From Desulfobacteraceae bacterium (GTDB taxonomy: Bacteria; Desulfobacterota; Desulfobacteria; Desulfobacterales; ETH-SRB1), in the NCBI GenBank assembly GCA_014237365.1, contig JABZFQ010000206.1, positions 1 to 49,887 of the forward strand: a stretch of 49,887 nucleotides of DNA, given 5' to 3'. Under the pieces are notes generated by a model that saw nothing but the letters and a program-made list of their open reading frames with translations, ran no database searches and was not told where the DNA came from. The translations under genes were made by a program, and so were the position numbers. Shown here piece after piece: positions 1-35,050 of the stretch (its first letter is position 1; each line of letters begins with the position of its first letter).

Positions 1-464
1 ATGCCCGAAGTTCGGCTGACATCCGCAAACGGTGAAGAAAGACCCGCGCTTTTAATTGCCGTGGTTTTTCCGGAACCACTTTCTCCGATCACCATATACC
101 ACGGAAGCACATAAAGAGGATTGCCATATTTTTTCAAGTGAGAAGACTTAAGAGCCTCAATGGCCTCTTTCCAACGAGCCTGAAGCTCTCTTAAACGCAC
201 ACTCTCTTTATCGTCCATAGTTTTCAGATAGGAGTCATCCTGCTCAATGATCCGGTCAACAAAATGCTGTTCCTGACGTTTAAGCCATAGCTTTCTTAGA
301 AAAAGCAAACATAGCCCCAAGCCTAAAATGCCAAACAAAACGAAAAATCCTACCCACCATGCCCAATCAAGGCTCAGTACGATTCCAAAAACCAGAAGGA
401 TAGTTAGTAGAATTACTGCTATAATAAAAAAGACTTTAAGAATTTTTAAAAAAATCAGCTTCAT
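1..464 (-). CDS. tssM: T6SS membrane-complex subunit TssM (IcmF-like), N-terminal ~154 codons; gene continues past window start
   Basis: Open at the window edge, so absent from the ORF track. The reverse-strand ATG at 464 overlaps the tssL stop (ATGA). Hand translation MKLIFLKILKVFFIIAVILLTILLVFGIVLSLDWAWWVGFFVLFGILGLGLCLLFL gives two TM helices. It continues ...NPLYVLPWYMVIGESGSGKTTAIKSAG (Walker A), the canonical TssM N-terminus. The gene sits directly after tssK-tssL. Confidence 0.85.
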   Translation of the reverse strand, partial: MKLIFLKILKVFFIIAVILLTILLVFGIVLSLDWAWWVGFFVLFGILGLGLCLLFLRKLWLKRQEQHFVDRIIEQDDSYLKTMDDKESVRLRELQARWKEAIEALKSSHLKKYGNPLYVLPWYMVIGESGSGKTTAIKSAGLSSPFADVSRTSG

Positions 465-1132
465 TTACTTAATAAACTTTCTCCGATATTGTTTAGAATA
501 AACCTGTAAATCAAAAACAGAACCGAGTAAAGGAGAACCGGGGTTCCAAGACAAAGAAGCGTAAAAGTTGAGAAGCGTTTTTTTTCTTTAAAAGAAATCA
601 CCTCGCTTAACTCAACAGGATATGCTTCCGGAAAAAGCTCTCCTTTTTCAAGAGAAGGCAGTCCCACTGAACTTCCTGTAAGAAGTTTCAAATTTGATGT
701 CTTTAGCTGTTCCAGGAGATATTCGTCTCCTTCATGGCAATAGCGTCCCATAAAACCTATAGCCAAACAGAGATAATAAACCTCCCTCACATCTCTTTGA
801 TGGGGACCAAGAGCATTTAAGCGTTCAAAGAAAATTTCGCCCGCGTCGGCAGTCTGATAATAAAAGCGCTGGAGTAGTTCGCCTTGCCACAGATGTTTTT
901 CTTTCCACGAAGAGTTTAAAATAGCCTCATCAATCCAGGCAAAAATGGCAAAGCGTGCCAGGTCGTAATCCTCCTGAGGAAAAGCGCCGTTATTGATACT
1001 CTCTTGACTTTTCGAAATCAGACGTTGAATATCGGTCTTAACCTGATCAAAGGGTGGTTGTCTTTTGGCCACTGTTTTCAAAAAATATGCCGCGTAGGCA
1101 ACGAGTTCTATAAAACAATCGGTCAATCGCAT
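461..1132 (-). CDS. tssL: T6SS membrane subunit TssL (DotU family)
   Basis: 223 aa with a DotU-like cytoplasmic domain and a single C-terminal TM helix (FTLLCLGTPVLLYSVLFLIY). Tightly packed between tssK (2-nt gap) and tssM (ATGA overlap). Confidence 0.8.
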   Translation of the reverse strand: MRLTDCFIELVAYAAYFLKTVAKRQPPFDQVKTDIQRLISKSQESINNGAFPQEDYDLARFAIFAWIDEAILNSSWKEKHLWQGELLQRFYYQTADAGEIFFERLNALGPHQRDVREVYYLCLAIGFMGRYCHEGDEYLLEQLKTSNLKLLTGSSVGLPSLEKGELFPEAYPVELSEVISFKEKKRFSTFTLLCLGTPVLLYSVLFLIYRFILNNIGESLLSK

Positions 1133-1134
1133 AT

Positions 1135-2520
1135 TTAACTTTTCCCCACAACCATTAGTTCTACCTTTAAATCTTCAGGAGCTGCATCCCAATACAAAGC
1201 GATGTTGTTATCTTTGCGCACACGGGCCCATTGATCACTGTGATGGTCAATCTGAAAATAAATAGAGTAAATCCGACGAGGCAATTCTTGTGGCGGCGCC
1301 GGAAGGTGTTGCAGCTTTACTCCGGGAAGAGCACGGGCCATAAGAATAGGTAAAGATTCTCGTGAACTTATTTTTGCGATTGTTTCCAGGGACTGAAGCA
1401 CGAAATCAGGATCCTTTTCAGTTTCAAAAACCAGGTAAAAACGGTTTCGTCCTTCAAAAATCGTTGGGGATAGATCACATGCATAATAGGTTCCGTCGTA
1501 TACGAGTTGAATCACATATTCCGGCCCGGCCGTAATCTCATCCAAAAGTTGGGTGACAAGAGACCGTGCCCCTGAAAAACATTTCCACAGGTTTTGATGA
1601 TCATATCCGGATAGAAGGCGGGTTCCGTCTTCCAGTTCTCCCATCACATTGACCTGCTCTGAAAAAGAAGAGAGTTCGCCGATCAATTCTCTTAAGAGGG
1701 CATACACCGTCCAGGGATGAATGTGTTGCAATTCAGTCAAATGAACAAGGGAAGGAATGTAGCGGTTAAGAGACCTTAAGGCTAAGAGATAAACCATATC
1801 TCTTGTCCCGAATTCGACCGTATGAATCCCCCTTTTACGTTTATACGATTCAAGCTGGCGGCCGCGAGATGCGATCTGGTCTTTGATTTCCTTGATAATT
1901 TTTACGAGAGGACCTGAACCGAAAACAGTAAGTGAGGGAGGAATAAACTGCTCGGAAAGTGTTATCTCTTCGCCTGATCTTTCCAGTTGAGCAAGAGGAA
2001 TAAGTATATAGTCTCCGATTTGCTCCTTTTCTGTTTCCCAAAATATTTTCAGGACATGGTAAAGCCTCTTAATCTGAGCCGGCGGCCCGCTTTGATGTAA
2101 GTCGGAAACCTCTTCAGGGTCGGTCTTTGTCACAAATCTGGTGGTCACTTCTGAAAGGTTTTCTAATTTGGAAAGGACGGTAACATTTTCTCCGGCACTG
2201 CTCCATTTTTTCAGGCCGATAAAAACGGTAAAAGGTTTGTCGCCATCCACCCAGGCTTCATCAAAAGAACGGGTCTCAATAAGAGAATTACCCGGAAAAA
2301 CCAGATAGGTCATATCCGGAAACAAAAATTCACCTTTCAGGAGATTAAAAGAAAGATTTCCCAGAGCAGTTTCCTGGATCTCTAAATTCCCGACGCCCCA
2401 CAGGTGAGGCTGAAGGAATTTATGAAAAGGTGTCAACAGAGACTGAAAATAAAGGTCTTCCAGTTGAAAATGTTGTGGTTGTAAAAAGAGGCCTTGATGC
2501 CAAAAAAGAGGTCTTTCCAT
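1135..2520 (-). CDS. tssK: T6SS baseplate subunit TssK
   Basis: 461 aa. The N-terminus MERPLFWHQGLFLQPQHFQ matches the conserved TssK start (W..G.FL.PQHFQ). Followed by tssL and tssM. Confidence 0.85.
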   Translation of the reverse strand: MERPLFWHQGLFLQPQHFQLEDLYFQSLLTPFHKFLQPHLWGVGNLEIQETALGNLSFNLLKGEFLFPDMTYLVFPGNSLIETRSFDEAWVDGDKPFTVFIGLKKWSSAGENVTVLSKLENLSEVTTRFVTKTDPEEVSDLHQSGPPAQIKRLYHVLKIFWETEKEQIGDYILIPLAQLERSGEEITLSEQFIPPSLTVFGSGPLVKIIKEIKDQIASRGRQLESYKRKRGIHTVEFGTRDMVYLLALRSLNRYIPSLVHLTELQHIHPWTVYALLRELIGELSSFSEQVNVMGELEDGTRLLSGYDHQNLWKCFSGARSLVTQLLDEITAGPEYVIQLVYDGTYYACDLSPTIFEGRNRFYLVFETEKDPDFVLQSLETIAKISSRESLPILMARALPGVKLQHLPAPPQELPRRIYSIYFQIDHHSDQWARVRKDNNIALYWDAAPEDLKVELMVVGKS

Positions 2521-2593
2521 AGTTTTGTCTTTTCCTTAACGACGAATTCAGCGACGCACCTCCGAAGGGGTGACTGTCCGCTGGAATGCTGGG

Positions 2594-2779
2594 TTAGGAA
2601 CGTGGACGAAATAACTTCCCCAACTATGCATCACAGCTTCAGGCCACCTTTGCCCGGTCTCAAATCACAAAAATATCAAAATAGCTCGCTATTCCATCAA
2701 CTTTTGTGATCTGAGATCGAACAAATCTGACCCAAATCTATGCGCCTACTTGTGGAAGTTAATTCGTCCACGTTCCTTA
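2594..2779 (+). mobile_element. MITE-1 copy (about 180-bp foldback element) flanked by TTA/TTA
   Basis: Terminal inverted repeats GGAACGTGGACGAAATAACTTCCCCAA ... TTGTGGAAGTTAATTCGTCCACGTTCC. The interior is also self-complementary. Near-identical copies lie at 16612, 18170, 19871, 22325 and 49512. Confidence 0.85.
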
Positions 2780-2813
2780 ACTGGCGTTATATTTTTATCG
2801 TTAGTCATTTAAT

Positions 2814-2870
2814 CTCGACTTTGGCCATTTTTCAATTTCGTCTCATTTAACAAAAATGGCCAAAGTCGAG
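2814..2870. terminator. Perfect 19-bp stem hairpin just downstream of the minus-strand defence operon
   Basis: CTCGACTTTGGCCATTTTT (2814-2832) pairs perfectly with AAAAATGGCCAAAGTCGAG (2852-2870), with a 19-nt loop. It lies 16 nt after the stop of the 2886..3767 gene. T/A runs sit at the stem base on both strands. Confidence 0.55.
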
Positions 2871-2885
2871 TTAATGATGATTGTT

Positions 2886-3767
2886 TTAGTTCAATGAAGA
2901 TAGAAATTCTTTTATCTCACTTGGAACCCGATTTGCCTCTCGTATTTTTCTTGCAAAATGGAAGCGAGGATTGTCTGCAATTTTATATTTCGATTTCAAC
3001 CTTTCTAATAAACGTTTCCCATCAATTATTCTGAGCAAAGAGTAAAATTGTGAATCATTATTTTCCGATTTTTTATCAAATTTATTAAGCCGATCACAAA
3101 TATTGGAAAAAAATTTTTCCCATCCGGATAATGTTTTCATTCTTTGTTGAATGAAATTATCAACTTCTTCTCTAATACCTTCCCCATCAAAATTTCGGCA
3201 GTATCCCGCACCAGGTATTGACAAGCCATATTCACGCAATAATATGCATGCGCCCATAACAAAGATTAAATTGCAACATTCCTGAGTTAATTCGTTTAAA
3301 ACAACATTATTGCTTCTTTTTTTTCTTCCCCGCTCATGATCCGCTAAAAATTCTTCGACTATTAGAGAATCGAAAAGGTAATTTTCAATCTCCCAGCGTA
3401 ATAGCGTATGAATATACTCGCCAAATGGAAACTTTGCTTTATATTTTTCATCATCGGTTTCAAGTAGAATATCCCAGTTCTTTTTTGAAAAAAGCGCATC
3501 GCGATCTACTATTCCATAAGCCTTTATCCCGTTTTCACGATCTTCCTTTACTCTCGACCGCACACCTGAATACCCTCCTGTAGAATGAAAATTGTCCGCA
3601 GATGTTCTGAATTCAATATGTTCGCCAAAGTCGAAAAACCATCTGTCTGCCAAAATTGATACATCTTCTTCAGATTCGAGGTATACAATGATTTTTAATG
3701 CATATCGTTTTTCTAATGTTATAGCGCTGTCGAATGATTTGAATTCAGGCACCTTTAGACCCCTCAC
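2886..3767 (-). CDS. DUF4435-type (OLD/Toprim-like) putative nuclease, PARIS AriB-like
   Basis: 293 aa. Acidic Toprim-like motifs are IIVYLESEEDVSIL, AYGIVDRDALF and RWEIENYLF. The GTG start overlaps the stop of the upstream ATPase (GTGA). Pairing of an ABC-type ATPase with a DUF4435 protein is the PARIS (AriA/AriB) architecture. Confidence 0.65.
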   Translation of the reverse strand: MRGLKVPEFKSFDSAITLEKRYALKIIVYLESEEDVSILADRWFFDFGEHIEFRTSADNFHSTGGYSGVRSRVKEDRENGIKAYGIVDRDALFSKKNWDILLETDDEKYKAKFPFGEYIHTLLRWEIENYLFDSLIVEEFLADHERGRKKRSNNVVLNELTQECCNLIFVMGACILLREYGLSIPGAGYCRNFDGEGIREEVDNFIQQRMKTLSGWEKFFSNICDRLNKFDKKSENNDSQFYSLLRIIDGKRLLERLKSKYKIADNPRFHFARKIREANRVPSEIKEFLSSLN

Positions 3768-4912
3768 ATCATATTTAGATCATTTTCTATCAAATATCCG
3801 CTTTTTCTCAAGCCCTTTTCTTCAACTTCGAAGGCGAAAGCCCTAATGATCTCTCGGGAATGGGTACTGGAGATTATCGTCAAGCCTGGATATGCTATTG
3901 CCATGTCTTTTAACCAGTTCAGGATTTTATGCTGCCATTTTGAATGCAGATGAACGTCCATTTCATCAATCAGCAAAATAGTATTGCTTGTCATATGGGC
4001 TCCCATGCGGAGACAAATTTGAAGCAGGCTCTTTTCACCGCTGCTCAACTGGTCAATACGATGCTCATGACCTTCATTTTCGATAATGGCCTCCGGTGGA
4101 TCTTTTCTAACTCCTTTCAAAAATTTATTTTTGCCTCGAAAAACTCTTTTATTTACTATTGCCAATGAACGTTCAAAACGGCCATCATCAATCCACTTCA
4201 ACCATACTAGAAGGTTGTCCAAAGAGTGTGTCCATTGCCGGCCTTCTTTACCGAATTTGTTTACAATATTGTATCCCCATCCCTCGGGGGTCGTTATTTT
4301 ACGTTCACTTTCACTGATCGTTTCAATATTGCGATAGGCCGAAAAATACAATAATGTCGGATAGGTCAAACTGTCATTTTCGAATTCTAATAATCGCCGA
4401 CCTCTTTCATTTTTCAACAGTATAGAAAAATCATTAACCCATGAATTTGTTTCATGTATCGTTTTGATACGGCCGGATGCCGATTTTCTAAATCCATAGA
4501 GATGCCATGCTTCTGCGCCAATTTTTTCCAACTCTTCGTGATTCCATTCCTTCAGCACTGTACCTTCTCCTATATTGCCTGCGATAAGGGAAAAAATATA
4601 AGAGCTTTTTTTTCCATCCTGATCAATATCAAGAAGAATATCCCATTGCGCGCGACCCCCTCCTTTATCAAGAGACTCAATTCCGAATTCATTCAGTTGA
4701 TCCCGGCCTAACATATCCATCATACAAGCCATCAAATCCAGAAGCGTTGTCTTTCCGCGTCCGTTCTCCGATGCTAACAAATAATAATTGCAAGGACGGC
4801 CATGCCTGTCTGTAAAATCAAAAGACCACAGTTTCTCCTGAAACGGGCCGATACGGTCCACTGTCAAGCGGACAGGGCGAAAACCTGTCACATGAAATTT
4901 ATCTATCTCCAT
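3764..4912 (-). CDS. ABC/SMC-type ATPase (AAA_21/23-like), PARIS AriA-like
   Basis: 382 aa. Walker A is ASENGRGKTTLLD, the ABC signature is LSSGEKSLL, Walker B is ILLIDEMDVHLH, and the H-loop is SSTHS. The ATG lies 14 nt inside the end of the upstream gene. Confidence 0.7.
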   Translation of the reverse strand: MEIDKFHVTGFRPVRLTVDRIGPFQEKLWSFDFTDRHGRPCNYYLLASENGRGKTTLLDLMACMMDMLGRDQLNEFGIESLDKGGGRAQWDILLDIDQDGKKSSYIFSLIAGNIGEGTVLKEWNHEELEKIGAEAWHLYGFRKSASGRIKTIHETNSWVNDFSILLKNERGRRLLEFENDSLTYPTLLYFSAYRNIETISESERKITTPEGWGYNIVNKFGKEGRQWTHSLDNLLVWLKWIDDGRFERSLAIVNKRVFRGKNKFLKGVRKDPPEAIIENEGHEHRIDQLSSGEKSLLQICLRMGAHMTSNTILLIDEMDVHLHSKWQHKILNWLKDMAIAYPGLTIISSTHSREIIRAFAFEVEEKGLRKSGYLIENDLNMM

Positions 4913-6398
4913 TTATTTGCCCCCTGCTGATTTCTTTTAAACTTGATGCAATATCATCTCTGCGAATATGTACGCCATGTATTCTGATAACGCTTTTTCC
5001 CAACCATCTGCATAGCATGTCGCCTTTGCCGGTAAGACGCTCAGCGCCTGTTTCGTCTATAATGATTTTCGATTCGGTGGATTTTTGAACAGTCAACGCT
5101 ATACGGCTTGGGACATTGCTTCGCAAAAGACCGCTAAACGTTGTTGAATCCGGTCTCTGTGTTGCGAGTACAAGATGAATGCCGGCGGACCGCCCTTTTT
5201 GCAACAAACGTATTAATGGCCCCTCTATATCCTGTTTTTGCATCAGCAAATCAGCCAATTCCTCGACGATAACTACAATACGGGGTAAACCGGTTATTCC
5301 GGCTAAAGTTGCCTCCGTTAAATTTGTTACATTTGATTTGGCAAATTTCTGTTCTCTTTTGGACATTTCTGTGACAAGCTCTGAGAGCAAATTGTGTGCA
5401 TCGAAAACTTCTGTGACAATTTCGTCATTATACAGATTTTTCAAACCGTTATATTGTGAAAACTCGACAGCCTTGGGATCAATCAAGCATAGCGTTAAAT
5501 TGGAATTATAATTATTATGCAGTATCGAAAGAATTAAGGCATGTAGGCAAACGCTTTTTCCGCTTCCGGTTGTTCCCCCTACGAGGAGATGAGGGGCCTC
5601 CGCCAAATCGAAACAGATTGGCTCTCCAAGGACATCGACACCGGGCCATACAGGCAAAATATAATCACTGGGCGGGTCTGCTGCCCACTCGCGTAAATCC
5701 CCACCAGTGAAATAGTGCCAAGTGGATGCGGGACGAGGTACATCCAGCCCAATAATCCGTGGTTTATCTGTCATGTTTTCAAAAACCCGATGCTTCCCTA
5801 TCCCCAAGTAAAAAGATATTTTATCCAAACCTTTTTGCAGTCGATCCAGGTCATTTATGTTCGGCAAATAAATATAAAACCGAGTCAAACGAGGCCCCTT
5901 GACAATATTTCGTATTTCAGCCTTAACTCCGATTTCACTAAGAGCGCTCTTTACCTGTTTTTCAATATCCTCGTCCATTTTCTGTTGCTGGCTAATAAGA
6001 TTTGAAAAGAGTTCTTGATAGAGATATTCATGGAAATCATGGGATTCTTTCCAGGCGGTTCGTATCTCGCGTAAGCCGCGCCGGGCATGTCGTTGCAGGT
6101 AAATTCTGTACTGATCTATATTCTTAAACAGGTCTTTTTGATGATACACGCTCAACAATGCGCAAAAGGAATCGGTATAATCAGGTTTTTGGCTTTCACC
6201 CGTAAGCTGCTCGAAACTGTATTCGCTTCCCCCCTTGATTCCTTTGTCGAGTTCATCCGAAGGTTCAGTGGGTATCCGTAACGAAATGGCAAGAGCGATT
6301 CGTAATACCGTCCATTTTGGTCCAGGAGCAAATAATCCCTTTTTCAGGACGTTATCAATAACACGCTCGTCTTTTTCACTGGTATATATCTTCGGCAT
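4899..6398 (-). CDS. Fusion protein: N-terminal DndE-like (DUF1832-like) region + FtsK/SpoIIIE-type P-loop translocase domain
   Basis: 499 aa. The C-terminal half has FtsK motor motifs: VGGTTGSGKSVCLHALILSI, IVVIVEELADL, GIHLVLATQRPD and SRIALTVQ. The N-terminal part (TVLRIALAISLRIP...GGSEYSFEQLTGE) resembles DndE by eye and sits where dndE normally lies, after dndD. Confidence 0.6.
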   Translation of the reverse strand: MPKIYTSEKDERVIDNVLKKGLFAPGPKWTVLRIALAISLRIPTEPSDELDKGIKGGSEYSFEQLTGESQKPDYTDSFCALLSVYHQKDLFKNIDQYRIYLQRHARRGLREIRTAWKESHDFHEYLYQELFSNLISQQQKMDEDIEKQVKSALSEIGVKAEIRNIVKGPRLTRFYIYLPNINDLDRLQKGLDKISFYLGIGKHRVFENMTDKPRIIGLDVPRPASTWHYFTGGDLREWAADPPSDYILPVWPGVDVLGEPICFDLAEAPHLLVGGTTGSGKSVCLHALILSILHNNYNSNLTLCLIDPKAVEFSQYNGLKNLYNDEIVTEVFDAHNLLSELVTEMSKREQKFAKSNVTNLTEATLAGITGLPRIVVIVEELADLLMQKQDIEGPLIRLLQKGRSAGIHLVLATQRPDSTTFSGLLRSNVPSRIALTVQKSTESKIIIDETGAERLTGKGDMLCRWLGKSVIRIHGVHIRRDDIASSLKEISRGQINGDR

Positions 6399-6409
6399 AA
6401 CACGCTCGC

Positions 6410-8440
6410 TTATGAATACATTGACTTTCTTTCGGGGCTCGTATGCTCACCGTCCGGATTATTCAAACGATACTCTTCCAATATATGAGGTTTAAGTATA
6501 TTGTATTTCTCTTTGTCTAACTCTGAATCCGTTGGAAGGAGAATTACCTGATCTCCGGCGTGCGGATAATAATGAGTCAAAAGATTTTGCTGGTGTCCTC
6601 TGTCAAAGCGTGCGAGGGGGGTATCGATAATCACCGGAAGAGATTTGCCTGAAACATCTTTCAGCGTCCACAATAATGATGTAGCAAAGAGTTGTTTCAT
6701 TCCGGCAGAGAGTCCTGCCATACCTACATGGGTTTTGTTATATCCGATGTATTGATAGCTAAAATCATCAAGTATTTCAATGCGGCTGATCTGTTTATGG
6801 GAACTCATCAATTTGCTGAAATGCTCGTTGATAGAATTCTCCATGTTCTCTTTTTGATTTTTTATCAGTCTCGCTTTGTACTCGGAATAAAGCTGTTTGA
6901 GTACGTCACCAAGTTGAACACGCTGTTTTGCGGTATGAGCTAACCTGACTGTCTGCTTTTGTTTATCAATTTCTTTTTGTTTTGATTTGACCTTATTTTC
7001 TTTTATATCTCTTATGTTACCTTCAATTTCTATCTTCTGTTCCTTTTTTTCATCAAGTTCTATTTTATTTTCCTCATAATGCCGTTTTCGGGCTTCATAT
7101 CGTTCTTTTTCATCTTTTTCCAGGCTGCTCATGTCATGAATTTTGTCGTTTATCTTCTCTATTTCTTTTCGTAACCTGCTGACAGCCCGCAAATTTTCAG
7201 AGTACCTTATCAACATATCCTTCGGGGCAATAAATTGCTCAAGATTTTGATATAATCGTTTTGCCCTGGCATATTCAAGCGAGAAAAGCCTTGAATCTTT
7301 TGAACCGCTTACCAAATATGGACTTAAAAGTCCATTTAGCTTGGTTTTATAGAAATCCTTCTGGTTGTCGATTAAGGGCGGCGTTGAAGGCAATCCTTTG
7401 TTAAAAAGATCCCTTGGGAGATCTTTCAATATTTGTCGCAATGTTTCCGTCAGAATACCGCTTTCGCTGTTTAATTGTTCTCTTAATATATTAATGGCTT
7501 TGAAAATCAAATCAGGATTCACAAGTAACGGTATGCTCTGCGGGAGATTAAGCGCAACTTCAAAATTTTTTTCCTGAAGTTGTTCATTTTTATTTTCAAA
7601 ATCTCTTTTAAGCAACTCCGCCTTATGCTCGTGCGCATAAGCCTGTTTGCTTTGCAAATAATTCAAATCTTTTTCGATTTCAATTTCCAGGTCACGAGTT
7701 TTTTCAATATTTCTTTCTAATTTCTCCGTTTCAGAAGCAAGTTTGGCCTCATATTCCGCAAGTTCTTTTTCAAGAATTCTAAGTCGATGATTAGCATCGG
7801 AAGGAGAGCCTTCCCGTCTCCATTTCCTTATATTTATTTCAATATTATTAGATAGTGTATCCAGCTTATCCAGCCCGAATAACCGTTCGATTTGTTCCAG
7901 GAGTTCCTCGCGATTTGCCTCTGCGATGGCTTGCACCTGTTCGCCGTCATATATAAAAAAGGAAACGATGTCTCTGGGAATCCTGGCATGTAAAAAACCC
8001 TGTGCTTCTTCAACTTCTTCCGGAACCCGGCCGAAACTCGGAATGACTTCTAATTTATGATTATAATCATTCCTGCCTTGCAGATGCCAAGATCGTTTGG
8101 CATCCACAGTCCCGGATTCTTCTTCCCAGATAACCCTGACGCTGAATTCCTCCTCTCCTTCGTTGCGGGCCGCGCAATTCATTATGCCCAGCCATTCCTC
8201 ACCCGTTCCAAGTAGATATGCTTTTGGGCTTAAGCTTCGCCCACGTTGAATATTGTTCAGTAATAGTTTATCAGTTCCAAGAAAAAGGAGTTTTACGCTT
8301 TCCATAAAACTCGTTTTTCCAAATCCGTTCCGGCCGGAAATCAATGTTATGTTTCTACTATTTTCGGGGGGAGAAAAAGCAAAGGTCTGGGTACCGTAGT
8401 AGGAAAATAAATTATGAATATGCACTTCTCTAATGATCAT
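6410..8440 (-). CDS. dndD: DNA phosphorothioation ATPase DndD (SMC-like)
   Basis: 676 aa. The N-terminus is MIIREVHIHNLFSYYG...ISGRNGFGKTS. A long coiled-coil middle follows, and the C-terminus is LSAGMKQLFA...VIIDTPLARFDRGHQQNLLTHYYP...QVILLPTDSE, which is typical of DndD. The start overlaps the dndC stop by 11 nt. Confidence 0.8.
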   Translation of the reverse strand: MIIREVHIHNLFSYYGTQTFAFSPPENSRNITLISGRNGFGKTSFMESVKLLFLGTDKLLLNNIQRGRSLSPKAYLLGTGEEWLGIMNCAARNEGEEEFSVRVIWEEESGTVDAKRSWHLQGRNDYNHKLEVIPSFGRVPEEVEEAQGFLHARIPRDIVSFFIYDGEQVQAIAEANREELLEQIERLFGLDKLDTLSNNIEINIRKWRREGSPSDANHRLRILEKELAEYEAKLASETEKLERNIEKTRDLEIEIEKDLNYLQSKQAYAHEHKAELLKRDFENKNEQLQEKNFEVALNLPQSIPLLVNPDLIFKAINILREQLNSESGILTETLRQILKDLPRDLFNKGLPSTPPLIDNQKDFYKTKLNGLLSPYLVSGSKDSRLFSLEYARAKRLYQNLEQFIAPKDMLIRYSENLRAVSRLRKEIEKINDKIHDMSSLEKDEKERYEARKRHYEENKIELDEKKEQKIEIEGNIRDIKENKVKSKQKEIDKQKQTVRLAHTAKQRVQLGDVLKQLYSEYKARLIKNQKENMENSINEHFSKLMSSHKQISRIEILDDFSYQYIGYNKTHVGMAGLSAGMKQLFATSLLWTLKDVSGKSLPVIIDTPLARFDRGHQQNLLTHYYPHAGDQVILLPTDSELDKEKYNILKPHILEEYRLNNPDGEHTSPERKSMYS

Positions 8441-9746
8441 GACTCAAATCCGCGTTTTCTATCTGCTCGACGGCTTTTTCGATCAACTCCCCGACATCAC
8501 GTTCCAGCCCTGTTTTAGCTCCCCAGGCGTCGAGGTTTTCATGTTTTTCATAGACCAGATTTAAAAGGGCTCCAACGAGTTCCTGCTGCACTTCATACGT
8601 TTTACAAAATTCCTCAATATATTTTTGGTCCAGTTCAATTAAAAACGATGAATTCTTCGGCATATCGACCTCCCTTCCAAATGAATGAGCTATCTTCAAA
8701 GCCGAATTTTCAAAATCAAAATCCTGATTCCATATACTCTGGATATATTCGATTTCAGAATTATCAAGCAACTCCTCATTTATCTCTTTTTCAATTGAAA
8801 GTAAACTGTTAAGGAGCATTTTACGCGTTTCATAGTTGAAAGGGCCGATCCCTTCTCGCTGATTCCGCTTATAAGGTAATCTGTATTTTTCTTCTTCTCT
8901 TATGTTTTTCAGTAAATTGCGGAATTGAGAAAGAGGAAGCATTTCCGATTCACCGGCGGCAATAAATCCTTCCATGGATTTATCATGTTTTACAACTGTA
9001 CATGTCCAGCAACCGAATCTGCTTCCACCACATGATGGTGTATTTAAGTCAAAAATAACGGGACACTCCCCCCCCGCTGCCTGAGAATAGAGATCAAACA
9101 TAAAATCATGTTTTTCTCCCCATGGCGGCGGATTATTGTTTATCAAATAATCCCAAACCATTTGATTTGTCCATTCTGCAATAGGCGAAGCAACAAGAGC
9201 GTTCGGTATTTCATGATGGAAATTTAGTTTCTGTTCGTTATAATCGCGCTTTTCCATACGCATTTTTCTGCTCGAACTCTCATCTTTCCTCGTGCCCAGT
9301 AATAGAATGACACTCCCATACTGTTTAGTTATTTTATCAATTACCCTGCGTGCAGGCTTGATTTTCATTTTCGACGTACACCATCTAAACCATCTCGTGG
9401 GGGAGGGGTATCCTTTTCCAATTAAATTTCCCCAAAAACTCTCTTCAGGTCTCGGCTTAACTAAAATCGTTTCAAGAGGAAGAGAGTATTCATCGGCGTG
9501 TCTTGATACACATTTTAATGAATATATCATATAATTTTTAATATTGGGAGCTTCAACTCTCGTATCCGTGGTAAGGACATAAACAGGTTTATACATTGAC
9601 TTGTCGAGTTCATGTAACAATTCCACCACAAGTTGCAATACTAAAGTCGAATCTTTTCCCCCTGAATAAGCTACTACCCATGCTCTTTTATCATTTTTAA
9701 AAAGATTCTTAAGATATTGCCGTGTGTTTTCGATAGTTTTATCCAT
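8430..9746 (-). CDS. dndC: DNA phosphorothioation PP-loop ATPase/sulfurtransferase DndC (PAPS-reductase fold)
   Basis: 438 aa. The PP-loop is AYSGGKDSTLV. The Cys cluster is CPVIFDLNTPSCGGSRFGCWTCTVVKHDKSM, characteristic of DndC. It is the first gene of the operon. Confidence 0.8.
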   Translation of the reverse strand: MDKTIENTRQYLKNLFKNDKRAWVVAYSGGKDSTLVLQLVVELLHELDKSMYKPVYVLTTDTRVEAPNIKNYMIYSLKCVSRHADEYSLPLETILVKPRPEESFWGNLIGKGYPSPTRWFRWCTSKMKIKPARRVIDKITKQYGSVILLLGTRKDESSSRKMRMEKRDYNEQKLNFHHEIPNALVASPIAEWTNQMVWDYLINNNPPPWGEKHDFMFDLYSQAAGGECPVIFDLNTPSCGGSRFGCWTCTVVKHDKSMEGFIAAGESEMLPLSQFRNLLKNIREEEKYRLPYKRNQREGIGPFNYETRKMLLNSLLSIEKEINEELLDNSEIEYIQSIWNQDFDFENSALKIAHSFGREVDMPKNSSFLIELDQKYIEEFCKTYEVQQELVGALLNLVYEKHENLDAWGAKTGLERDVGELIEKAVEQIENADLSHDH

Positions 9747-9776
9747 AAGTTGGGGATTGTCCCTTATTATGTGGGT

Positions 9777-10062
9777 GGTCCCTACAAAAGAGCGCAGGTC
9801 AATAATTTCAAGCAGTTAGCGCTCAGTTGCGGTGAATGAGTTCATGCGTGAATCAAGGGTTTGCAGAGTATACCAAGCATTTTTTTGACCACCTGCACTG
9901 TTTTGTAGGAACTATAGACTTTCGGTAGTCCCTACAAAGCAGTGCAGGTTTGGGAATACTGCCCTGTTTTACTATGTAAATACCTGGTTTTTTGCTATGT
10001 GTTGCCAGAAGACATGATATGTAACTTATTGAAATTATTGACCCTCGTTGCTTTGTAGGCAC
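9777..10062. mobile_element. MITE-2 (about 286-bp foldback element), complete copy
   Basis: Roughly 40-bp imperfect terminal inverted repeats: GGTCCCTACAAAAGAGCGCAGGTCAATAATTTCAAGCAGTTA against the reverse complement of TAACTTATTGAAATTATTGACCCTCGTTGCTTTGTAGGCAC. A central hairpin pairs CCTGCACTGTTTTGTAGGAAC with GTCCCTACAAAGCAGTGCAGG. Partial copies lie at 22296-22553 and 34754-35050. Confidence 0.7.
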
Positions 10063-10354
10063 TGCCAAAATACAAGATCAACAAAGTGTAAACTACTTTT
10101 GACTTGTCGTGAAGGATGCCAAAAAATTCTACTAATTTTATAAAAAATGGGTGCCACAAATTATCAATCGACTATGGCATGCACAGTTGTTATTGGCTAA
10201 AGTTAGAACCAAGTCCGAATTTGTTTTGAATTGCGGATTTCGTTATTCAAATTTTGCCTAAACATGACTTTTCGTTCAGGCGTTTTAATTTTAATTACCT
10301 GCAACTCCCTCAGATTGTTAAGTTATTATTTGAGTTTTTAAATTTCTGATGATG

Positions 10355-10876
10355 TTATTGAATTTGTTGCGGGCCCAACGTAAGTTCTATATTTAAGAGG
10401 CTTGGTTTTAAAATTTTAGTCCGTTTGATCCACCCTTTTTTTTCTATAATCACCGGAATATCAAATAACCTCACCATTCTTTCTTTATAAAGGAAATAGT
10501 AACCTGCTACAATAGCTATATATTTTGCGCCCTCGGCTCGGTTCAAAGTAAAAGTCAAATCTTGCCCGGGATGAATGATTAATCTTTCTGAACCAGCCAC
10601 ACTGGCATCAAAAAGGCCGCATTCCAAAAGTTTGTAAAGTCCGTTATTATCGCCGGCAAGGTGATTGAAAGTATTCGGATCTCTGAGTTGATAAACACAT
10701 ATAAGGAGAGTGTGAGGCGATCCCTCGTGGAGGTTTAATTGAAAATCGGCTTTTAAGTGAAGTTGAACAGCCTCATTTTCGTATCTCCACTCCGGAGGGG
10801 CAAGAGGCTGGGACGCACATGAACAGACTCCTAAAGCAAGCAACCACAGGAACAGTATTTTAATATATTTTTTCAC
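10355..10876 (-). CDS. tssJ: T6SS outer-membrane lipoprotein TssJ
   Basis: 173 aa. Lipoprotein signal with lipobox (LALGVCSC). The size and the VYQLRDPNTF segment are typical of TssJ/SciN. Confidence 0.7.
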   Translation of the reverse strand: MKKYIKILFLWLLALGVCSCASQPLAPPEWRYENEAVQLHLKADFQLNLHEGSPHTLLICVYQLRDPNTFNHLAGDNNGLYKLLECGLFDASVAGSERLIIHPGQDLTFTLNRAEGAKYIAIVAGYYFLYKERMVRLFDIPVIIEKKGWIKRTKILKPSLLNIELTLGPQQIQ

Positions 10877-33918: not shown

Positions 33919-34753
33919 AACGCCCCAATCCTATCATATTTAATTGATAAATATTTCCCTGAAAATGAGGCCAATAAGCTTGCAGCTCTTGAGTCATATA
34001 ATAAGCATTTATACAGACCAAATACTTATTTACATAAGTGGTGGGCTCGTCGGTCTGGCACGACCTTTCGTTACATACTTAAGCAACTGGTACAGCATTC
34101 GGGAAAACGAAATTTTTATGAAGCTGGTGGCCTGGAAAGCAAAATCATTTTTGATCCCATGATGGGTGGTGGTACGATTCTTCATGAGGCCATTCGAATG
34201 GGAGCAAGTGTTATAGGAATAGATATTGATCCGATCCCTGTCCTTCAGGCAAAAGCAAGCTTAACTCAATCTTCTCTGAAACACAAAAAAGATATATTTA
34301 GCTGGTTTTTCAAAGCATTGAAGGACAAATTAGCTCCATTATACAAAACTTTTTGCCCCATCTGCAATCTGGAAAGTGAAATCCAGTTTACATTGTATGG
34401 GCCGCGTAAAAGGTGTTCATGCAGGGAAGTGATTTTTGTGGATAGCCTTTTATTACGACAGGCTAATCACCATGATGTAAACATCTGTTCAACATGCCAT
34501 GAAGTTTACACAGGCAAAACTCATAGCTGCCGGAAGCAGGCAAACACTCCATTAATTTTAAAAGGCACAAGGTGTTGTGAAAAGTGCGGCTCTGGATTTG
34601 CCGACATTTTAGATGAACCATTTTCAAAGCGTTATATTCCTCTGGTAATTGTCGGATCATGCACCGAACATGGAACATTTTTTAAATCAGCAGACAATGA
34701 TGATCTGGCAGTAATAACTCAAGCCCTTTCTCAAACAAAACATATTTTAGGGT
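33919..34753 (+). pseudogene. DUF1156-like DNA methyltransferase fragment (no start codon, 3' end replaced by MITE-2)
   Basis: The frame is open from 33919 without a start codon: ...YRPNTYLHKWWARRSGTTFRYIL...IFDPMMGGGTILHEAIRMGASVIGIDIDPIPV. This resembles the WWARRP and AdoMet motif I regions of DUF1156 methylases. The ORF track shows only 34159..34782. There is no catalytic motif IV before the MITE-2 terminal repeat begins at 34754. Confidence 0.55.
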
Positions 34754-35050
34754 GGTCCCTGCAAAACAGTGCGGGTCAATAATTTGGCACTGGTTCAGTT
34801 GAAGAGGTGATTTAATTATATCAATAGGTTGCAGTGCCTTATGGCAAACTGGCACAACCAACATAACTAATTGTTTTTACAGGTATAATCGACAAATTCG
34901 AGTCTTTTTCATCTATTCAACTGAACCAGTGCCAATAATTTAAACAAGTTACATATTATAGCTTCTGGCGACACATGGCGAAAAATCAGGTGTTTACAAA
35001 GCAAGACAGGGCGATATTTCCAAACCTGCATTGCTTTGTAGGAGACTACC
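34754..35050 (-). mobile_element. MITE-2 partial copy, itself interrupted by MITE-4
   Basis: GGTCCCTGCAAAACAGTGCGGGTCAATAATTT | MITE-4 | AAACAAGTTACATATTATAGCTTCTGGCGACAC...CCAAACCTGCATTGCTTTGTAGGAGACTACC is collinear with the reverse complement of 9930-10062. Confidence 0.7.
34786..34923. mobile_element. MITE-4 (138 bp) with 8-bp target duplication AATAATTT
   Basis: Terminal inverted repeats are GGCACTGGTTCAGTTGA ... TCAACTGAACCAGTGCC. AATAATTT is present at 34778-34785 and 34924-34931. Confidence 0.75.

What the first reader, a model, noticed from the sequence alone, without database searches (positions are those of the whole stretch)
4899..6398. DndE-like domain fused to an FtsK/SpoIIIE-type DNA translocase
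Canonical DndE is a small (roughly 110-130 aa) stand-alone nicked-DNA-binding protein encoded after dndD. Here the gene after dndD encodes 499 aa.
- The first roughly 70 residues look DndE-like (RIALAISLRIP...GGSEYSFEQLTGE).
- The last roughly 260 residues are an unmistakable FtsK motor domain: Walker A GGTTGSGKS, Walker B VVIVEELADL, and LATQRPD.

Coupling a dsDNA pump to the PT modification complex would suggest processive scanning or loading. I am not aware of this for Dnd.
Basis: partly seen in the sequence, partly recalled or inferred. Interest (0 to 1): 0.7.

Follow-up and report, generated by a model that had tools for sequence, protein, structure and literature searches.

The report
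DndE fused to FtsK motor
The gene really does encode a DndE DNA-binding domain fused to a soluble FtsK-type DNA pump inside a phosphorothioate DNA-modification island, but this fusion is already published and belongs to a widespread, conserved defence cassette that nobody has tested experimentally.

Summary
The 499-aa ORF lies on the minus strand at 4899..6398. Residues 1-131 form a DndE double ribbon-helix-helix domain. Residues 138-~480 form an FtsK alpha+beta motor with all catalytic motifs, but no gamma domain and no membrane anchor.

The architecture is not new. Rakesh, Aravind and Krishnan (NAR 2024, PMC10853773) state that one HerA/FtsK clade sits in Dnd systems, next to a DndD-related ATPase, fused to DndE.

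About 50 clusters at 50% identity carry the fusion. In 55 of 87 related loci the gene order is identical: DndC(+small protein)-DndD-DndE::FtsK-ABC ATPase-DUF4435 Toprim. Most of the other 32 loci are contig-truncated subsets.

On a Mesorhizobium plasmid, the last four genes plus the small protein follow a complete canonical dndA-C-D-E set. This marks them as a separate, Pbe-like second DndD/DndE module. Rare relatives lacking DndC also lack the FtsK part.

Best reading: DndE::FtsK is the site-recognition and translocase subunit of a compact phosphorothioate modification and restriction system. The nuclease arm is probably the PARIS-like ATPase/Toprim pair. The mechanism is inferred, not shown.

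The parts
4899..6398 (-). DndE::FtsK fusion gene, 499 aa, soluble
   Evidence: ORF list. Pfam DndE + FtsK_alpha + FtsK_SpoIIIE. Full-length AF2 model pLDDT 88.3, pTM 0.86. No hydrophobic segment: maximum KD19 is 1.5.
6006..6398 (-). DndE domain (residues 1-131): two tandem ribbon-helix-helix units plus a long H2b helix and a conserved linker helix
   Evidence: PF08870 at 26.7 bits. Secondary-structure elements E3-5/H8-21/H29-40 and E59-61/H75-86/H94-115/H122-131. Top 13 Foldseek matches are all DndE structures. A stand-alone 143-aa DndE in L156 is 48% identical and ends at this boundary.
5736..5987 (-). FtsK alpha domain (residues 138-221)
   Evidence: PF17854 at 31.5 bits. Foldseek alignment to the FtsK motor covers about 375 columns.
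4959..5657 (-). FtsK beta (RecA-like ATPase) domain, residues 248-~480. Walker A at 5553-5579, Walker B at 5247-5276, arginine finger R403 at 5190-5192, sensor LATQRPD at 5148-5168. No gamma domain follows.
   Evidence: PF01580 at 141 bits. G275-S282, E380, D383, R403 and T413-D417 are invariant in 34 homologues. Matches 2ius/2iut/6t8b at E ~1e-30, TM 0.74-0.81, 33% identity. Motif positions.
6410..8440 (-). DndD-type ABC ATPase with coiled-coil insert. Orthologue of the second DndD (dndD2) of the Mesorhizobium tandem locus.
   Evidence: TIGR03185 at 259 bits against a cutoff of 246. Best PADLOC hit is PbeC at 438 bits. Scores 216 bits to Mesorhizobium dndD2 but 62-69 bits to dndD1. Only one Cys in the sequence, so no CxC motif (sequence).
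8430..9746 (-). DndC (PP-loop sulfurtransferase)
   Evidence: TIGR03183 at 339 bits against a cutoff of 290; PAPS_reduct.
8457..8633 (-). C-terminal tail of DndC (residues 372-430), homologous to the Dnd-associated small protein (SP / Sp-DndD)
   Evidence: Weak PF20306 hit. 33% identity, E 2e-11, to the 67-aa ORF upstream of DndD in L156. Matches separate 68-80-aa ORFs between dndC and dndD in L002, L158, L140, L117 and L122. 39% identity to the Mesorhizobium 'DNA modification system-associated small protein'.
3764..4912 (-). ABC-type ATPase (AAA_21/AAA_15) of the PtuA/AriA defence type. Its start overlaps the fusion gene's stop by 14 nt.
   Evidence: Pfam AAA_21 1.8e-16. PADLOC PtuA and AriA hits. 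Family profile against PDB: Retron Ec83 ATPase 1.5e-12, AriA 2.4e-11. Found after the fusion gene in every locus long enough to show it.
2886..3767 (-). DUF4435/Toprim-like putative nuclease, 293 aa. Its start overlaps the ATPase stop by 4 nt.
   Evidence: PADLOC AriAB 3e-7 and AriB 1.7e-5. 20 of 31 family members hit Pfam DUF4435, best 2.3e-9. E31, D88-R89-D90 and W125-E126-x-E128-x-Y130 are invariant (N129 in the window and the consensus).

Best explanation
The gene encodes the DNA-recognition-plus-motor subunit of a compact, horizontally mobile phosphorothioate (PT) defence cassette: DndC(+SP tail)-DndD-DndE::FtsK-ABC ATPase-DUF4435 Toprim.

Shown:
- The protein is a DndE double-RHH domain joined by a conserved helix to a gamma-less, anchor-less FtsK alpha/beta motor with intact catalytic residues.
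- It belongs to a family of about 50 clusters at 50% identity.
- The five-gene order is essentially invariant and the genes are tightly packed.
- Its DndD partner is the 'second', SP-associated DndD paralogue.

Inferred, by homology to FtsK:
- The motor forms a hexameric ring on dsDNA and translocates using ATP.
- The ring carries six DndE domains, which replace FtsK-gamma as the DNA-reading element.
- Together with DndD, this gives a processive scanner.
- At cognate sites on host DNA the scanner recruits DndC, with sulfur supplied by a housekeeping cysteine desulfurase, to write PT.
- On DNA lacking PT, continued translocation or stalling licenses the downstream ABC ATPase/Toprim pair to cut nucleic acid.

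The logic resembles a Type I R-M enzyme or Pbe/DndFGH, with the translocase fused to the specificity subunit instead of the nuclease.
For: - Domain identity.
- Catalytic motifs invariant in 34 homologues.
- No TM segment and no gamma domain.
- Cassette conservation: 55 of 87 loci have the full order; most of the others are contig-truncated subsets; median intergenic gaps are -4, -1, +1 and -14 nt. The same five genes occur in Desulfonema, Methylocaldum and a 94%-identical relative, in unrelated flanks.
- In the window the cassette sits between tssJ and tssK/tssL, so it is an inserted island.
- The Mesorhizobium plasmid has dndA-dndC-dndD1-dndE1-SP-dndD2-DndE::FtsK-ABC-292aa. The window proteins match the second module.
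- PT-less relatives (SP-DndD-ABC-DUF4435-stand-alone DndE) lack both DndC and the FtsK part. The motor therefore co-varies with PT.
- The same motor type ends the PT-linked restriction protein SspH/DndH (PADLOC SspH 1e-49; PMC10853773).
- The fifth gene has Toprim catalytic signatures.
Against: - No experiment exists for any member.
- The window has no dndA, and no canonical dndD/dndE could be searched for in the rest of the genome. It is therefore unproven that this single DndD/DndE::FtsK pair suffices for PT writing.
- In the Mesorhizobium arrangement, modification already has its own DndD/DndE. This suggests the fusion may not be needed for writing at all.
- The link between DndC and FtsK presence rests on only two PT-less lineages.
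- The ABC/Toprim pair could be an independent PARIS-like back-up system that merely travels with the island.
- Hexamer formation and the geometry of six DndE domains were not modelled.
Confidence: 0.5

Rival explanations
1. Restriction-side sensor only. The SP-DndD2-DndE::FtsK-ABC-Toprim genes form a Pbe-like restriction module. The motor and DndE scan DNA to detect missing PT and trigger the nuclease. PT writing needs a canonical DndD/DndE encoded elsewhere (or uses DndD2 without the motor), so the fusion has no role in modification.
For: - The tandem Mesorhizobium locus has a complete canonical dndACDE directly upstream of this module. A degraded copy of the same layout occurs on a Rhizobium plasmid.
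- The window DndD scores best against PADLOC PbeC models.
- The SP small protein is a hallmark of Pbe/CxC-type modules (PMC10853773 section 16).
- FtsK-type motors are known in the restriction proteins DndH/SspH.
Against: - In the 55 complete compact cassettes, DndC is the only modification gene and is directly welded to this module. In the window DndC is even fused to SP.
- phmmer with the window DndD would detect dndD1-type proteins: Mesorhizobium dndD1 scored 62 bits, E 2e-20. It found no second DndD in any of the other 87 loci, each with up to 10 kb of flank.
- A conserved DndC with no DNA-targeting partner nearby would be odd.
Confidence: 0.27
2. Modification-only role. The motor simply makes DndC/DndD/DndE processive. 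The downstream ABC ATPase/DUF4435 pair is an independent PARIS/OLD-like abortive-infection system that hitch-hikes in the same island.
For: - DndE is a modification component in all studied Dnd systems (review PMC12707154).
- ABC+DUF4435 pairs act as autonomous systems elsewhere: PARIS, and the HEC-01 type pairs in bioRxiv 10.1101/2024.01.29.577857.
- A second, unrelated AAA_15/DUF4435 pair lies nearby in L160.
Against: - The pair occurs in the same order in every cassette long enough to show it. Start/stop codons overlap or nearly abut.
- The pair stays with DndD/DndE even in the PT-less, motor-less variants. This points to a functional unit rather than a passenger.
Confidence: 0.15
3. The FtsK motor serves DNA transfer or segregation of the mobile island (like Streptomyces TraB or conjugative coupling proteins), or the fusion is an assembly or frameshift artefact.
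For: - The island is clearly mobile: different flanks in each genome, and many metagenome contigs of ~7-8 kb that contain only the cassette.
- Weak hits to TraB and TraD models.
Against: - No integrase, relaxase or oriT-type gene recurs in the flanks.
- The motor is always fused to DndE and embedded between DndD and the ABC ATPase.
- More than 100 independent homologues of ~500 aa share the architecture, which excludes an artefact.
- No matches in phage genomes.
Confidence: 0.03

Closest known systems
DndE-HerA/FtsK fusion proteins of Dnd systems ('clade-3' HerA/FtsK of Rakesh, Aravind & Krishnan, NAR 2024, PMC10853773; credited there to Krishnan et al., NAR 2020)
   Same: DndE and an FtsK-type ATPase in one polypeptide, encoded next to a DndD-related ABC ATPase in a PT (DndC-containing) neighbourhood. 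This is exactly the window's arrangement.
   Different: Nothing detectable; the window gene is another member. The paper gives one sentence and no mechanism. Its main text does not mention the ABC ATPase/DUF4435 pair or the fused SP tail. I could not read the 2020 paper.
Canonical stand-alone DndE (E. coli B7A 4LRV; Natronorubrum bangense 7X4E)
   Same: Double ribbon-helix-helix fold (TM 0.58-0.67). Pfam PF08870. Encoded right after DndD.
   Different: Only 12-20% identity. A profile of the window's N-terminal subfamily does not reach PDB DndE sequences, and no canonical DndE could be recognised among its hits in 1.8 billion representatives. Carries an extra conserved linker helix and an ~360-residue motor. 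Pairs with the SP-associated DndD paralogue.
Cellular FtsK / SpoIIIE dsDNA translocase
   Same: Alpha+beta motor at 33% identity, TM 0.74-0.81 to 2IUS/2IUT/6T8B. Walker A/B, arginine finger and sensor Gln are conserved.
   Different: No 4TM anchor, no long linker, and no gamma (KOPS-reading) domain. The host's real FtsK is a separate 784-aa gene, as seen in Desulfonema.
DndH / SspH of DndFGH-type PT-dependent restriction
   Same: C-terminal FtsK alpha/beta-type motor in a PT-linked defence protein (PADLOC SspH 1e-49 and 2e-42, the latter covering residues 139-489). The paper places some DndH motors in the same clade.
   Different: DndH is ~1700 aa, with SF2-C, TRD, inactive methylase and REase domains. 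Here the only partner domain is DndE, and the nuclease is a separate Toprim protein.
PbeABCD (CxC ABC ATPase + DndE cognate + small protein + HKD-nuclease/SF2 helicase)
   Same: A second ABC-ATPase/DndE pair with a small protein, attached to dndC-containing loci and combined with a motor and a nuclease. PADLOC's best hit for the window DndD is PbeC.
   Different: No CxC motif in the ATPase. The motor is FtsK fused to DndE, not an SF2 helicase fused to the nuclease. The nuclease is DUF4435 Toprim with its own ABC ATPase, not HKD.
PARIS (AriA ABC ATPase + AriB DUF4435 Toprim)
   Same: The two downstream genes have the same two-gene architecture and domain types.
   Different: Similarity is weak: AriA 2e-11 over the C-terminal ~75 residues, AriB 1.7e-5. 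Here the pair is embedded in a DndD/DndE operon rather than standing alone.

Membership tests
DndE (PF08870, double RHH) | Significant match to the DndE family profile | tested here: met
   PF08870 at 26.7 bits against a cutoff of 25, residues 26-115 covering profile positions 22-106 of 111. Most homologues carry a precomputed PF08870 hit.
DndE (PF08870, double RHH) | Two tandem ribbon-helix-helix units with an elongated last helix; fold matches solved DndE | tested here: met
   AF2 model at pLDDT 92.3. The 13 best PDB matches are all DndE (7x4e, 4lrv, 5wtu), TM 0.58-0.67, probability 0.92-1.0; E-values are modest at 0.04-0.5.
DndE (PF08870, double RHH) | Encoded as operonic partner directly after a DndD/CxC ABC ATPase | tested here: met
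   DndD stop at 6410 and fusion start at 6398. Same adjacency in the related loci.
DndE (PF08870, double RHH) | Binds (nicked) dsDNA and is required for PT formation | not testable with these tools
   Needs biochemistry and genetics.
FtsK/SpoIIIE translocase motor | Alpha and beta domains with Walker A, Walker B, arginine finger and sensor Gln | tested here: met
   PF17854 + PF01580. Motifs are invariant in 34 sequences. TM 0.74-0.81 to FtsK motor structures.
FtsK/SpoIIIE translocase motor | Gamma domain (wHTH reading KOPS/SRS) and N-terminal membrane anchor, as in cellular FtsK | tested here: not met
   No PF09397 or PF13491 hit. The protein ends at residue 499, after a terminal helix that follows the beta domain (residues 480-496). 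Maximum KD hydropathy is 1.5. Therefore not a cellular FtsK orthologue.
FtsK/SpoIIIE translocase motor | Hexameric ring that translocates dsDNA with ATP | not testable with these tools
   No multimer modelling or biochemistry available.
Published DndE-HerA/FtsK fusion class (PMC10853773) | DndE and HerA/FtsK in the same polypeptide, adjacent to a DndD-related ABC ATPase, in a Dnd PT-modification neighbourhood | tested here: met
   compared with the paper's text.
Published DndE-HerA/FtsK fusion class (PMC10853773) | Phylogenetic placement in the authors' clade-3 | not tested
Only PADLOC SspH similarity was seen.
PbeABCD | CxC-clade ABC ATPase (Zn-hook CxC motif) | tested here: not met
   The window DndD has a single Cys and no CxC (sequence). 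It passes the DndD equivalog cutoff, although its best PADLOC model is labelled PbeC.
PbeABCD | Small disordered protein (PbeB/SP) and a cognate DndE (PbeD) | tested here: met
   SP-like tail fused to DndC. DndE domain present.
PbeABCD | HKD nuclease fused to SF2 helicase (PbeA) | tested here: not met
   No such gene in the cassette. Its place is taken by the ABC ATPase + DUF4435 pair.
PARIS (AriA/AriB) | ABC ATPase gene followed by a DUF4435 Toprim gene | tested here: met
   AAA_21/AAA_15. 20 of 31 family members hit DUF4435. Invariant E31 and the D88-R89-D90 (DxD) motif.
PARIS (AriA/AriB) | Orthology to AriA/AriB; activation by anti-restriction proteins; tRNA cleavage | tested here: inconclusive
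   Only weak, partial similarity: AriA 2.4e-11 over ~75 residues; AriB 1.7e-5. Function is not testable.
DndH/SspH | Large multidomain core (SF2-C, TRDs, inactive methylase, REase) preceding the motor | tested here: not met
   The protein is 499 aa with only DndE + motor. PADLOC SspH hits cover only the motor.

The most novel reading that the evidence does not exclude
The compact cassette is a self-sufficient, Type-I-like phosphorothioate R-M machine. A single DndD/DndE::FtsK complex both writes PT with DndC and, by FtsK-driven translocation from unmodified sites, activates a PARIS-like ABC ATPase/Toprim nuclease. This would be a restriction arm for PT systems not yet described experimentally (distinct from DndFGH, SspE, SspFGH and Pbe). 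It would also be the first case of an FtsK motor acting as the translocase of a modification-dependent restriction complex through fusion to the specificity subunit.
Probability: 0.3. Interest if true: 0.65.

Novelty: already known. Interest (0 to 1): 0.33.

Why it matters
How Dnd enzymes find and only partly modify their short consensus sites is unresolved. So is how PT status is read by restriction partners. A DndE physically fused to a dsDNA pump is a natural experiment for both questions: the scanning step is hard-wired into one polypeptide. The whole system fits into ~7 kb, so it should be easy to transplant and mutate.

The architecture itself is already in the literature. The value of this window is therefore as a clean, intact example. 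Three contextual points may be under-reported:
- the invariant ABC ATPase/Toprim partner;
- the SP tail on DndC;
- the PT-less, motor-less relatives.

Tried and rejected
- The genome-contig scan with the full-length alignment picked generic FtsK motifs.
- A profile of the N-terminal domain against PDB sequences found no DndE. Only the fold comparison did.
- A profile of the fifth gene against PDB sequences gave only chance hits. Pfam on individual members was needed.
- The promoter/terminator scan of 2400-10450 did not differ from shuffles.
- The composition profile shows no clear island boundary.
- Clustering of flanking ORFs found no recurrent integrase, dndA or dndB. A DNA-PT-associated methyltransferase-like ~840-aa protein appears in about 10 loci, and there was some lineage-specific synteny.
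- No homologue in phage genomes.
- Krishnan et al. 2020 could not be retrieved.
- The artefact (frameshift fusion) idea is rejected because of the many independent ~500-aa homologues.
- Cellular FtsK identity is rejected because the gamma and TM domains are absent.
Full report
**1. What is there**

The finding's coordinates hold a 499-aa ORF, but on the minus strand (4899..6398). It is the third gene of a co-directional, tightly packed block:
- dndC, 8430..9746. NCBIfam DndC equivalog 339 bits, cutoff 290.
- dndD, 6410..8440. DndD equivalog 259 bits, cutoff 246.
- The 499-aa gene, 4899..6398.
- A 382-aa AAA_21/AAA_15 ABC-type ATPase, 3764..4912.
- A 293-aa protein, 2886..3767.

Neighbouring genes overlap or nearly abut. 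The overlaps are 11 nt (dndC/dndD), 14 nt (fusion/ATPase) and 4 nt (ATPase/293-aa gene), with an 11-nt gap between dndD and the fusion gene.

**2. Domain anatomy**

Pfam finds three domains: DndE (residues 26-115, 26.7 bits, cutoff 25), FtsK_alpha (138-221) and FtsK_SpoIIIE (248-416, 141 bits).

A full-length AF2 model built on 34 homologues is confident (pLDDT 88.3, pTM 0.86).
- Its C-terminal ~375 residues superpose on the E. coli and P. aeruginosa FtsK motor (2ius, 2iut, 6t8b) at E ~1e-30, TM 0.74-0.81 and 33% identity.
- Walker A (274-282), Walker B (375-384), R403 and T413-Q-R-P-D417 are invariant across the family.
- There is no gamma domain, no 4TM anchor and no hydrophobic segment. This is a soluble alpha/beta motor, not the cell-division FtsK.

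The N-terminal 131 residues fold as strand-helix-helix twice, followed by a long helix. A separate model of residues 1-140 (pLDDT 92.3) has only DndE crystal structures among its 13 best PDB matches (7x4e, 4lrv, 5wtu; TM 0.58-0.67).

Two corrections apply: the strand, and the domain sizes (about 131 and about 350 residues rather than 70 and 260).

**3. It is a family, and it is published**

The 120 best database hits are ~500 aa (a few ~470-aa truncations aside), 49-94% identical over the whole length, and mostly carry PF08870 plus PF01580. They come from Desulfobacterales, Magnetococcales, Methylococcales, Rhodocyclaceae, Nitrosospira and Ca. Kentrum. Some are already named 'DndE family protein' or 'FtsK/SpoIIIE domain-containing protein'.

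An exhaustive profile search with the N-terminal domain finds 105 clusters at 50% identity. About 50 are full-length fusions and about 15 are stand-alone proteins of 128-160 aa.

A full-text search returned one relevant paper: Rakesh, Aravind and Krishnan, NAR 2024 (PMC10853773). [quoted passage not shown] Reference 24 (Krishnan et al. 2020) is not held. The architecture is therefore already known. No experimental study turned up.

**4. Context: a conserved five-gene island**

I fetched 87 related loci and searched their ORFs with the five window proteins.
- 55 show DndC-DndD-DndE::FtsK-ABC ATPase-fifth gene in that order and strand.
- Most of the other 32 loci are subsets cut by contig ends.
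- Median intergenic gaps are -4, -1, +1 and -14 nt.
- The flanks differ between genomes.
- Many metagenome contigs are ~7-8 kb and hold only the cassette.

In the window the cassette lies between tssJ (10355..10876) and tssK/tssL (1135..2520 and 461..1132) of a type VI secretion cluster. All of this points to a mobile defence island.

The fifth gene is a DUF4435/Toprim-like protein. Twenty of 31 members hit PF14491. E31, D88-R-D90 and W125-E-x-E128-x-Y are invariant (position 129 is N in the window and the consensus). PADLOC gives weak AriB/AriAB hits.

The fourth gene is an ABC ATPase of the PtuA/AriA/retron-effector type. The last two genes thus have the PARIS architecture, though only distant similarity to AriA and AriB.

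**5. Three comparative observations that bear on function**

(a) The C-terminal ~57 residues of the window DndC are homologous to the Dnd-associated small protein (SP).
- The SP is a separate 68-80-aa ORF between dndC and dndD in several cassettes.
- It is a 64-aa annotated 'DNA modification system-associated small protein' in Mesorhizobium.

(b) Plasmid pM0123d of Mesorhizobium amorphae carries dndA-dndC-dndD1-dndE1-SP-dndD2-DndE::FtsK-ABC ATPase-292 aa.
- The window DndD matches dndD2 (216 bits), not dndD1 (62-69 bits).
- The other window proteins match the second module.
- A decayed copy of the same layout sits on a Rhizobium plasmid.
- So SP-DndD2-DndE::FtsK-ABC-Toprim is a distinct module that can sit beside a complete canonical modification set, much as PbeABCD does.
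- The window's compact form looks like that tandem with dndD1-dndE1 (and dndA) removed.

(c) Two lineages (L150/L156 and L159-L163) have SP-DndD-ABC-DUF4435 followed by a stand-alone DndE.
- That DndE is 143-147 aa, scores 27-34 bits on PF08870, and is 48% identical to window residues 3-131.
- These lineages have neither DndC nor an FtsK part.
- In this small sample, the motor co-occurs with PT chemistry, while the ABC/Toprim pair stays with DndD/DndE regardless.

**6. Mechanism**

Shown:
- A DndE domain rigidly linked to an apparently active, soluble FtsK motor.
- Obligate operonic partnership with an SP-associated DndD, DndC and an ABC/Toprim pair.

Inferred:
- The motor forms a hexamer on dsDNA, with the DndE domains replacing gamma as the DNA reader.
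- With DndD it scans DNA. DndC writes PT at cognate sites, using sulfur from a housekeeping desulfurase. IscS substitution is established for other Dnd systems.
- The ABC/Toprim pair is the nuclease arm that acts on unmodified DNA.

I give this dual-role model about 0.5. The main rival (0.27) is that the module is purely a Pbe-like restriction unit and that PT writing uses a canonical DndD/DndE elsewhere. For this rival: the Mesorhizobium layout. Against it: DndC is the only modification gene in all 55 compact cassettes, and no second DndD was detected within 10 kb in any of the 87 loci. A modification-only role with a hitch-hiking PARIS-like pair gets 0.15. A DNA-transfer role or an artefact gets 0.03.

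**7. Comparison and novelty**

The gene is a member of the published DndE-HerA/FtsK fusion class (defining features met).
- It is not a cellular FtsK: no gamma domain and no TM anchor.
- It is not DndH/SspH: no TRD, methylase or REase core.
- It is not Pbe in the strict sense: no CxC motif and no HKD-helicase.

It works like a hybrid of these. I rate it 'already known' as an architecture. It remains uncharacterised experimentally, and some contextual features may be under-reported. Interest is 0.33.

Noticed in passing
window 2886-4912 (minus strand): A PARIS-like gene pair (AAA_21/AAA_15 ABC ATPase + DUF4435 Toprim-like protein) directly follows the fusion gene with overlapping start/stop codons. 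It is conserved in the same position in essentially every related locus.
   Followed up: yes
window 8457-8633 (minus strand, DndC residues 372-430): The DndC C-terminus is a fused copy of the Dnd-associated small protein (Sp-DndD). In other cassettes this is a separate 64-80-aa ORF between dndC and dndD.
   Followed up: yes
window 461-2520 and 10355-10876: The ~7.8-kb dnd cassette interrupts a type VI secretion cluster between tssJ and tssK/tssL(DotU). A Ser/Thr kinase, FHA, PP2C and VgrG lie further along the window. No integrase or direct-repeat boundary was found.
   Followed up: partly
window 9768-10072: Four copies of a ~22-nt motif (ACCTGCRCTnTTTTGTAGGRAC) in alternating orientation, ~125-150 nt apart, sit in the 600-nt gap upstream of dndC. 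An 11-mer core occurs 6 times in the window against 0.8 expected. This could be operator sites or a repeat-element remnant. The 94%-identical relative L085 cannot hold the whole repeat region: only ~120 nt separate dndC from the upstream radical-SAM gene there (motif not searched for).
   Followed up: partly
window 2585-2870: Downstream of the cassette lies a nested ~200-nt imperfect inverted repeat (2585-2629/2744-2788 enclosing 2632-2672/2702-2742). It is followed by a perfect 19-bp hairpin (2814-2832/2852-2870) just after the last gene's stop. This may be a terminator and/or a MITE-like element.
   Followed up: no
L150, L156, L159-L163: Variant systems: SP-DndD-ABC ATPase-DUF4435-stand-alone DndE (143-147 aa), with neither DndC nor an FtsK domain. 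In L160 the stand-alone DndE is followed by two unannotated ORFs and then a second, unrelated AAA_15/DUF4435 pair.
   Followed up: partly
L166 (Mesorhizobium amorphae plasmid pM0123d, NZ_CP015322.1 737036-751434): Tandem arrangement: canonical dndA-dndC-dndD-dndE, then SP-dndD2-DndE::FtsK-ABC ATPase-292 aa, then a DGQHR (DndB-like) gene on the opposite strand. A frameshift-ridden copy of the same layout is on Rhizobium sp. RCAM05350 plasmid unnamed5 (L167), next to a 'DNA phosphorothioation-associated putative methyltransferase'.
   Followed up: yes
L081 4974-7963 (Desulfonema limicola CP061799.1): In this complete genome the cassette's dndC is split into two pieces (191 aa and 271 aa) by an inserted 503-aa ORF with no Pfam hit. 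This may be an insertion element or intron-encoded protein.
   Followed up: no
metagenome loci L087, L091, L094, L107, L119, L122, L126 and contig lengths: Many independent metagenome and Logan contigs carrying the family are only ~7-8 kb, just the cassette. This suggests assemblies break at its borders, as expected for an island that varies between strains.
   Followed up: partly
window 34159-34782: A 207-aa ORF begins with what looks by eye like a DNA-methyltransferase SAM-binding motif (GGGTILHEA...GIDIDP). It seems N-terminally truncated, possibly a remnant R-M gene. Not analysed.
   Followed up: no
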